From positions 110,980,001-111,044,000 of the forward strand of contig OZ024743.1 in NCBI GenBank assembly GCA_964016885.1: DNA of 64,000 nt, in the 5' to 3' direction. The position numbers and the translations under genes are program-made. Numbering within the stretch: the first letter of the stretch is position 1; each line of letters starts with the position of its first letter. Shown piece after piece: positions 17,096-17,678 of the stretch. Source of the DNA: Eledone cirrhosa (taxonomy: Eukaryota). The notes beneath the pieces are model-generated. The model was not told the origin of the DNA. It saw nothing but the letters and a program-made list of their open reading frames with translations, and did not search any database.

Positions 17096-17138
17096 ACGAT
17101 GTACTAGTTTCAAGCTTGTTAGCTATCATCAGCATCGT
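17096..17138 (-). ncRNA. Minimal type I hammerhead ribozyme (family B)
   Basis: Minus strand: acgatg-CTGATGA-tagct aaca agctt-GAAA-ctag-TA-catcgt. Confidence 0.8.
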
Positions 17139-17633
17139 ATACCCTTCTGCAAGATAGTTGAAAGTTCGAAAGTATATACTTTCCTTATGAAAATTAACGG
17201 CTGAGCAGCCTAATTTGCATATCGAGTGAGTTAAGTTAAGTCGGTCAGGCATACCGAAAACGATAAGTTGAAATAAAATGAAAACGAAATTTCATTTCTC
17301 ACTCTTAGTACGGCACTTACTTAAATGTAAGTATGTATGTATACGTACATACATATATGTATACAGACGTACAGTAGCATGCACATATATATATATATAT
17401 ATATATATAAACAATTAAGTTAAGAATGTACATCCACATATGTATACTGAAATACTAGTATGCATATGAATACACACACGTATACATATGTAGATGTACC
17501 GAGTTTTTCACTGGTCACTTTACTGTGAGTGTCCAGCTATTCTGTATGTAAACACACAGACAAACCGGTTTTTAGAGTCATACTGGTTTTTTAGGAAACA
17601 CCTTTCCTCTATTCTCCAGAAAGCCAGACAAGG

Positions 17634-17678
17634 AATATTGAACTAGTTTCGATGTTGTTACATCTCATCAGCAATATT
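17634..17678 (-). ncRNA. Minimal type I hammerhead ribozyme (family A); copy at 18100-18144 has GAAA>GAAT
   Basis: Reverse complement of aatattg-CTGATGA-gatgt aaca acatc-GAAA-ctag-TT-caatatt. Confidence 0.85.

What the first reader, a model, noticed from the sequence alone, without database searches (positions are those of the whole stretch)
17096..17678. Covariation between the family A and family B ribozymes
The two families have different sequence but the same fold. Stem I is aatattg/caatatt vs acgatg/catcgt, and stem II is gatgt/acatc vs agct/agct. Both keep the AACA loop, CUGAUGA, GAAA and ACUAGU, with cleavage triplets GUU vs GUA. Compensatory change in both stems is direct evidence of selection on RNA structure. 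B has a U-U pair at the base of stem II instead of G-C.
Basis: seen in the sequence. Interest (0 to 1): 0.7.

Follow-up and report, generated by a model that had tools for sequence, protein, structure and literature searches.

The report
Covarying hammerhead ribozymes in sister retrozymes
Two related, very abundant non-coding repeats in this animal genome carry the same hammerhead RNA fold with paired changes that keep its stems intact, which is the expected mark of selection on a likely self-cutting jumping RNA of a known kind, and those changes are predicted to stop the two families from pairing with each other.

Summary
Observation confirmed with small corrections. Both motifs are minus-strand type I hammerheads. 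All 13 differences in 44 nt are five compensatory pairs, G-C to U·U at 10.1–11.1, and the cleavage base. A and B are homologous along the whole unit (58% identity in flanks), so this is true covariation; it beats a neutral simulation (P≈1.5e-4). Across 12 representatives, helix I pairs in 72 of 72 cells, and a distal stem and the loop-3 palindrome also covary. The selection acts on the copying lineages of non-LTR retrozymes (9,417 A-type, 26,282 B-type exact matches), not shown for this locus; old copies decay with pair-breaking changes. U·U is the commonest state here and is already described (axolotl HHR_Amex2; Perreault 2011). A/B heterodimers are predicted to fail despite the shared ACUAGU, because helix I is swapped between partners. 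Cleavage and expression are untested. The scan had already found retrozymes and their U6-like promoter box on other DNA of this genome. Verdict: a new member of a known kind.

The parts
17095..17138 (-). Family B type I hammerhead (U10.1.U11.1, loop 2 UAACAA, ACUAGU palindrome, GUA site)
17634..17677 (-). Family A type I hammerhead (G10.1-C11.1, loop 2 UAACAA, ACUAGU palindrome, GUU site)
17210..17221 (-). 12-nt octamer-containing box of the B unit, like the box upstream of host U6 genes
17761..17772 (-). The same 12-nt box in the A unit
16766..19602 (-). Left arm of a two-armed family B insertion, interrupted at its internal (TA)n by the A insertion; begins with a half hammerhead at the inversion point 19601/19602
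19601..20692 (+). Right arm of the family B insertion, hammerheads at 19660-19703 and 20366-20409 (the second has one helix I mismatch)
17408..18282 (-). Left arm of the family A insertion, 1.9 units of 466 bp
18283..19330 (+). Right arm of the family A insertion, 2.3 units; hammerheads at 18527-18570 and 18992-19035
18100..18143 (-). Family A hammerhead copy with a core change (A15.1 to U), predicted inactive
55842..56726 (.). Second, separate two-armed family B insertion; hammerheads at 56183-56226 (-) and 56506-56549 (+, with changes in helix II and the palindrome)

Best explanation
A and B are two diverged sister families of one non-coding tandem repeat, each unit carrying a type I hammerhead whose stems changed in compensatory pairs, most likely because only RNAs that still fold and cut themselves were copied back into the genome as non-LTR retrozymes. 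Shown: homology, the fold, the covariation, copy numbers, tandem two-armed arrays in (TA)n, no long reading frame, and a box shared with host U6 promoters. Inferred: a multi-unit transcript is cut at each hammerhead (probably as a same-family double hammerhead, since ACUAGU cannot close a stable helix III alone), the monomer is probably circularised, and a Penelope-like element's enzymes reverse-transcribe and insert it. Selection is at the level of the element's replication; inserted copies probably drift.
For: Homology: whole-unit alignment score 217.5 against a shuffle maximum of 86, with upstream and downstream flanks each above their shuffles; 58% identity over 177 flank columns. A vs B: neutral simulation at the flank distance gives P=1.5e-4 for at least 5 compensatory and at most 1 broken pair of 10; given 12 changed stem bases, P=1e-3 that 9 of 10 still pair. 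Nine related lineages: 0 unpaired cells of 81 over 9 pairs against a simulated mean of 24 (0 of 8000 runs; 1 of 8000 at half rate). Twelve representatives: helix I 100% paired, 5 of 6 pairs with two-sided change; 0 of 500 shuffles reach the covariation score; slid controls 0.03-0.13 against 0.645. RNAalifold recovers helices I and II unaided and a distal 7-bp stem with two-sided changes in 6 of 7 pairs. Loop-3 dinucleotide stays self-complementary across families: UA, AU, GC; among double-change dinucleotides 91 of 100 listed are the palindrome AU (counted by hand; 764 matches, control 17). The A/A 60-mer cofold gives the double hammerhead unprompted. Copy numbers 9,417 and 26,282, controls 0; an array of 31 A units. 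GC 35%, longest ATG frames 48 and 72 codons. Old family E copies: of 19 changed pair cells in 135, 12 broken, 6 kept by a one-sided change, 1 by two. Precedent with activity: axolotl U.U hammerhead cleaves, much better as a dimer (PMC7229834 section 15).
Against: No cleavage or expression data. Rfam scores are below the gathering cut-off. Single-motif folding energies are not unusual (z -1.25 for B, -1.46 for A). In the real two-unit context the energy model gives the double hammerhead a probability of about 0 and prefers each copy's own helix I. B 60-mers cofold through an alternative CAAGCUUG duplex, not the double hammerhead. There are only about four deep lineages, so no single pair could reach significance, and I chose the representatives (the common variant of each subfamily; a family C variant with an insertion in helix I, L072, was left out). 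In family E the stems diverged less (7.8-8.9%) than the flanks (15.6-20.6%), which does not fit pure drift unless flank figures are inflated by subfamily differences and truncations. Sense-strand T5 (A) and T7 (B) runs would stop Pol III before the next ribozyme. No parent Penelope-like element was identified.
Confidence: 0.85

Rival explanations
1. The motifs are solo pseudo-LTRs of autonomous Penelope-like elements, left by heavy 5' truncation, and the covariation reflects selection on those coding elements, not on a free non-coding RNA.
For: Two-armed inverted insertions in (TA)n are Penelope-like hallmarks (PMC8557442 passages). A 2026 preprint derives animal retrozymes from pseudo-LTRs (abstract and introduction). 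Penelope-like coding fragments lie in the window and in 9 of 204 loci.
Against: A and B form long head-to-tail arrays of non-coding units, up to 31 in a row. The Penelope-like fragment in the window carries a different hammerhead-like motif. The units carry a U6-like box of their own. Whether any A or B unit directly abuts a Penelope-like frame was not tested.
Confidence: 0.08
2. Family B (and the C.A and A.A lineages) is catalytically weak or dead and spreads for other reasons, such as its promoter or reverse-transcriptase recognition; its stems are kept for folding only.
For: G10.1-C11.1 is the most conserved hammerhead pair after A15.1-U16.1 (PMC3088659 passage). B has a competing self-complementary CAAGCUUG. 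No RNA data.
Against: B keeps every core base in 26,282 exact matches. U.U is the best-tolerated mismatch and occurs in natural hammerheads, and the axolotl U.U ribozyme cleaves. One-step changes to A-U or G.U exist only as scattered copies: 115 purine-10.1 matches; of 100 listed 49 G.U, 37 A-U, 11 G.A, 3 A.A, 0 G-C (counted by hand), so a Watson-Crick pair there has not spread in B.
Confidence: 0.05
3. The pairing is kept by DNA-level processes (hairpin-templated repair or gene conversion in satellite arrays), with no selection on RNA.
For: The units are rich in short palindromes and lie in tandem and inverted arrays.
Against: G.U and U.G wobble states are fixed in several lineages, which suits RNA rather than templated DNA repair. 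The unpaired catalytic core is invariant while flanks are 58% identical. The core reads as a hammerhead on one strand only.
Confidence: 0.02

Closest known systems
Metazoan non-LTR retrozymes: axolotl Rtz331/HHR_Amex1 and Rtz353/HHR_Amex2, mussel and coral retrozymes (Cervera and de la Pena 2020, PMC7229834; section 15 read whole, other passages seen)
   Same: Tandem non-coding units with one type I hammerhead each, low GC, two or more hammerhead families in one genome, tens of thousands of copies. Amex1 has a one-pair helix III with a palindromic tetraloop; Amex2 has a U.U at the base of helix II.
   Different: B combines both weak features in one motif. Units are longer (466 bp, about 420-500 bp) than the 170-400 nt reported. 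C.A and A.A also occur at 10.1-11.1 in multi-copy lineages. No RNA or cleavage data here.
Cave cricket pDo500 satellite hammerheads (Martinsen et al. 2010, PMC2837043; abstract and passages seen)
   Same: The same argument as the finding: compensatory changes in stems I and II with a conserved core, taken as functional constraint on a hammerhead repeat.
   Different: There the comparison is across species of one family and the dimer geometry described differs; here it is across families inside one genome.
Natural hammerheads with U10.1-U11.1 and palindromic stem III/loop III (Perreault et al. 2011, PMC3088659; passages and supplement legends seen, supplement files not read)
   Same: U.U at the base of stem II; palindromic stem III/loop III in repeat-type hammerheads proposed to act as dimers.
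   Different: No test of cross-family compatibility was seen in the passages read.
Newt satellite 2 (Coats, Zhang and Epstein 1994; not held, seen only as cited in PMC2220036)
   Same: Hammerhead repeat with an internal snRNA-type promoter.
   Different: Cited as Pol II; here the box matches U6 upstream DNA and was not found upstream of the U2 genes examined.
Penelope-like element pseudo-LTR hammerheads (PMC4209133, parts 1-2 of 4 read; bioRxiv 10.64898/2026.07.22.740005, part 1 of 5 and passages read)
   Same: [quoted passage not shown]
   Different: A and B have the canonical 6-bp helix I and 4-bp helix II with no extra base between 9 and 10.1, and no coding frame.

Membership tests
Type I hammerhead ribozyme | Core CUGANGA, GAAA, NUH in type I order with open helix I | tested here: met
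Type I hammerhead ribozyme | Helices I and II supported by pairing | tested here: met
Type I hammerhead ribozyme | G10.1-C11.1 consensus pair (family A) | tested here: met
Type I hammerhead ribozyme | G10.1-C11.1 consensus pair (family B); a consensus preference with published U.U exceptions | tested here: not met
   U.U in B; exceptions in PMC3088659 and PMC7229834
Type I hammerhead ribozyme | Helix III, stable alone or formed in a dimer through a palindrome | tested here: inconclusive
   Palindrome present and covarying; dimer favoured for A, C and E 60-mers but not for B, and not in two-unit context
Type I hammerhead ribozyme | Loop 1/loop 2 tertiary-contact bases | tested here: inconclusive
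   U after helix I, UA in the 5' bulge and U, A, A, A of loop 2 are invariant in 12 rows; their match to the Schistosoma contacts is recalled, not tested
Rfam Hammerhead_HH9 (RF02275) | Score at or above the 52-bit gathering cut-off | tested here: not met
   36.5 bits (A), 19.3 bits (B); none at gathering
Type I hammerhead ribozyme | Self-cleavage after H17 | not testable with these tools
   needs an in vitro assay
Non-LTR retrozyme | Head-to-tail repeats, each unit with a type I hammerhead | tested here: met
Non-LTR retrozyme | Short, low-GC, non-coding unit | tested here: met
   466 and 502 bp, 35% GC, longest ATG frames 48 and 72 codons; longer than the 170-400 nt reported
Non-LTR retrozyme | Dispersed copies across the genome, consistent with retrotransposition | tested here: met
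   near-identical copies on many contigs; nested two-armed insertions in (TA)n
Non-LTR retrozyme | Expressed as unit-length circular RNA | not testable with these tools
   no RNA holder listed
Non-LTR retrozyme | Derivation from or mobilisation by a Penelope-like element | tested here: inconclusive
   Penelope-like fragments co-occur; no parent identified
Autonomous Penelope-like element | RT and GIY-YIG frame between pseudo-LTRs | tested here: not met
   no coding frame in the A or B units or arrays

The most novel reading that the evidence does not exclude
Covariation in helix I and in the loop-3 palindrome acts as a self/non-self code. Because these hammerheads cut as dimers with helix I swapped between partners, each family can only be activated by its own kind, so compensatory drift isolates co-existing retrozyme families, blocks A/B chimeric circles, and lets them evolve as separate RNA 'species' in one genome. 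Forced double-hammerhead energies are -12.8 to -19.4 kcal/mol within families and +1.0 for A/B, with all between-family pairs from -6.6 to +11.3; no B-core/A-flank chimera was found genome-wide.
Probability: 0.3. Interest if true: 0.55.

Novelty: new member of a known kind. Interest (0 to 1): 0.3.

Why it matters
As found, it is good comparative support that these abundant repeats are under selection for a hammerhead fold, in an animal group for which my two paper searches found no retrozyme study (organism group guessed, not tested). That kind of evidence is already published for other hammerhead repeats, and so is the U.U pair. What could matter more is the natural series it offers: G-C, U.U, C.A, A.A and A-U at the 'conserved' 10.1-11.1 pair, and three palindromes, in multi-copy lineages of one genome. 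That makes two open points directly testable: how much the pair matters in full-length dimeric hammerheads, and whether dimer cleavage is family-specific.

Tried and rejected
Rfam at gathering threshold found nothing; below it the many miRNA hits are microsatellite or inverted-repeat artefacts. The repeat finder was swamped by microsatellites. Expression: no RNA holder listed, which is no evidence either way; the four contig runs laid are of unrecorded kind and show presence only. A search for new helix II families returned 44 matches (control 5), mostly decayed B/E copies or unrelated singletons, and no new family. Pfam found no meaningful family in the three Penelope-like fragments. Old ACAUGU hammerheads with unrelated flanks could not be clustered and were left out of the alignments. 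'U.U is decay' was rejected. 'A and B are unrelated and convergent' was rejected. A/B heterodimers were rejected on energy grounds only. The five B-core/A-strand pattern hits have B-type 3' flanks and are point mutants, not chimeras; the reverse chimera was not searched, and absence is also expected if A-B read-through is rare. The B lineage with an AU palindrome is one locus among 100 listed and alternates with UA units, so it is weak evidence. The 1994 newt paper is not held. A paper search on double hammerheads and heterodimers listed nothing on cross-family dimers in the 15 of 63 titles shown. R-scape was not available.

Full report
Observation. They align without gaps and differ at 13 of 44 bases. 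In register, helix I is AUAUUG/CAAUAU in A and ACGAUG/CAUCGU in B, and helix II is GAUG/CAUC and UAGC/GCUU around the loop UAACAA. Five pairs change on both sides and still pair, four are unchanged, one goes from G-C to U.U, and the cleavage base differs. There are no one-sided changes. Rfam gives Hammerhead_HH9 at 36.5 bits for A and 19.3 for B, below the cut-off of 52.

Setting. The window is G000:C4:110980001-111044000 of a 3.0-Gb, microsatellite-rich animal genome. A two-armed B insertion (16766-19602 minus, 19601-20692 plus) has a two-armed A insertion (17408-18282 minus, 18283-19330 plus) nested in the (TA)n that the B unit carries. Units are 466 bp (A) and 502 bp (the B unit from L060), 35% GC, with longest ATG frames of 48 and 72 codons. 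Exact-pattern counts are 9,417 A-type and 26,282 B-type U.U motifs, with reversed-pattern controls of 0. One A array has 31 units in a row. A pattern for non-U-starting palindromes gave 13,871 matches, and the 100 listed are almost all a third family, C, with a 310-bp unit and ACGCGU. An older family, E, has GGG/CCC in helix II, A.A at 10.1-11.1 and ACAUGU.

Is it covariation? That needs common descent. A and B align along the whole unit (score 217.5, shuffle maximum 86 in 200), and the flanks on each side do so separately (94.5 vs 62; 78.5 vs 52). Flank identity is 58% for A/B, 68% for B/E and 47% for A/E over 177 columns. Family C did not join by flank similarity. With independent-site evolution at the A-B flank distance, at least 5 compensatory pairs with at most 1 broken pair arose with P=1.5e-4; given 12 changed stem bases, 9 of 10 pairs survive with P=1e-3. 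Over nine related lineages and nine pairs (10.1-11.1 excluded) none of 81 cells is unpaired, against a simulated mean of 24 (0 of 8000 runs; 1 of 8000 at half the rate). On 12 representatives including C, helix I is paired in all cells, 5 of 6 helix I pairs and 3 of 4 helix II pairs show two-sided change, 0 of 500 shuffles reach the covariation score, and slid controls fall from 0.645 to 0.03-0.13; the two measures that count pairs or pair types were not above the shuffles (44 and 343 of 500). RNAalifold finds the same helices and, on 11 longer sequences, a distal 7-bp stem with two-sided changes in 6 pairs. A further compensatory switch inside family A (A-U to U-A at 10.2-11.2) is seen in the genome and on single contigs of runs X4 and X5, whose kind is unrecorded. 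Limits: about four deep lineages, one or two changes per pair, and representatives chosen by me as the common variant of each subfamily; L072, a family C variant with an insertion in helix I, and old hammerheads with unrelated flanks were left out.

What was selected. In 15 old E copies (16 aligned, L161 dropped because it came from a stem-biased pattern), 19 of 135 pair cells differ from the family majority: 12 broken, 6 kept by a one-sided change, 1 by two. That is what drift after insertion gives. Against pure drift, stems differ at 7.8-8.9% and flanks at 15.6-20.6%, though flanks include subfamily differences and truncations. I infer that selection acted on the source copies that were replicated. 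Nothing here shows a host function for this locus, and three of its hammerhead copies in the window already carry disruptive changes.

The U.U pair. It is not decay. It is the commonest state, shared by B and most of C. In the B background only 115 matches have a purine at 10.1; of 100 listed, 49 are G.U, 37 A-U, 11 G.A, 3 A.A and none G-C, nearly all single scattered copies (counted by hand). C.A occurs in a B subfamily and A.A in E, and an A-U variant of C forms arrays. U10.1-U11.1 is described in natural hammerheads as the best-tolerated mismatch (PMC3088659, passage) and in axolotl HHR_Amex2, which cleaves 22% in an hour as a monomer and much better as a dimer (PMC7229834, section 15). GUA is a known natural cleavage triplet (PMC1636495, passages); GUU does not appear in that paper and its use is recalled.

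Dimers. ACUAGU can close only one pair around a palindromic tetraloop, as in HHR_Amex1, so a double hammerhead is the likely active form (PMC6155905, passages). The central dinucleotide is self-complementary in every large family. Among the four dinucleotides two changes away from both UA and GC, 91 of 100 listed are AU, 8 are CU from one duplicated block, 1 is AG and none CG (764 matches, control 17); most AU hits are family E, so this is a few lineages, not 91 events. In a double hammerhead helix I is crossed between partners, so the covariation itself predicts incompatibility: forced energies are A/A -12.8, B/B -18.4, E/E -19.4, C/C -14.9 and A/B +1.0 kcal/mol, with 4 of 6 pairs in each crossed helix. 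No B-core/A-flank chimera exists among exact matches: the 5 hits have B-type 3' flanks. Against the dimer model, folding of real two-unit stretches gives it a probability near 0, and B 60-mers prefer another duplex through CAAGCUUG. The model ignores tertiary contacts and co-transcriptional folding.

Promoter. A, B and many E copies share a 12-nt octamer-containing box 100 or 88 nt upstream of the core, followed by a TATA-like stretch. Two dispersed U6 genes and a U6 array have the same box at -76 to -78 and TATA at -30; two further array copies have it displaced by an insertion; none of the six U2 loci examined has it within 400 bases. Box-to-TATA spacing is 42-43 in the repeats and 46-48 in U6, and T5/T7 runs would stop Pol III within one unit, so the polymerase is open. 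I saw the box match, before opening earlier notes; two of them report the same on other DNA of this genome. Newt satellite 2 is the precedent, seen only as a citation.

Comparison and verdict. This works like, and on the testable features belongs to, the metazoan non-LTR retrozymes. Compensatory change as evidence of constraint on a hammerhead repeat is published for crickets (PMC2837043) and for Penelope-like elements (PMC4209133). Two searches for hammerheads or retrozymes with 'octopus' or 'cephalopod' listed no such study; the organism group is a guess, and supplements of these papers were not read and may list such motifs. The scan had already reported retrozymes in this genome. The finding is real, well supported and largely expected: new member of a known kind, interest 0.3. 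The family-specific dimer code is the most novel reading left open (probability 0.3).

Noticed in passing
window 31370-36230: Two-armed, inverted, broken Penelope-like element (RT and GIY-YIG-like fragments; Atlas leads HTH_animal and GIY-YIG in a minority of cluster members). Its 3' ends carry a different hammerhead-like motif with a roughly 80-nt insert in place of helix II and the palindrome ACAAUUGU in the left copy.
   Followed up: partly
window 17210-17221 and 17761-17772 (-); L101-L104: The octamer-containing box of A, B and E matches the box at about -77 of host U6 genes and was not found upstream of the U2 genes examined; spacing to TATA is 3-6 nt shorter and T runs lie within the unit.
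   Followed up: yes
window 17385-17409 and 19328-19430: The B unit contains its own (TA)n, the apparent insertion target, so B elements make landing sites for A and probably for themselves.
   Followed up: partly
L185 (G000:C1:319893000-319897500): A B array in which units alternate between ACAUGU and ACUAGU palindromes, suggesting a two-unit template or a higher-order duplication.
   Followed up: partly
window 17110-17117: Family B helix II region contains the 8-base palindrome CAAGCUUG, which the energy model prefers for B-B pairing over the double hammerhead.
   Followed up: partly
L052:2600 and L047: A fourth hammerhead family related in flanks to family C by eye, with a longer, hairpin-type helix III (ACAGACUGU) and extra bases before helix II.
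   Followed up: no
L186-L200: Many old, dispersed hammerheads with ACAUGUC and GAUC/GAUC-like helix II whose flanks do not cluster; possibly relics of Penelope-like pseudo-LTRs.
   Followed up: no
window 2401-3707 (+), 38899-39444 (+), 50552-50932 (-): Open frames that read like non-LTR retrotransposon reverse transcriptase fragments and a PIF1/Helitron-type helicase fragment (recalled resemblance, not searched).
   Followed up: no
L108, L112: Some U6 array copies have a roughly 190-bp insertion between the promoter and the gene start.
   Followed up: no
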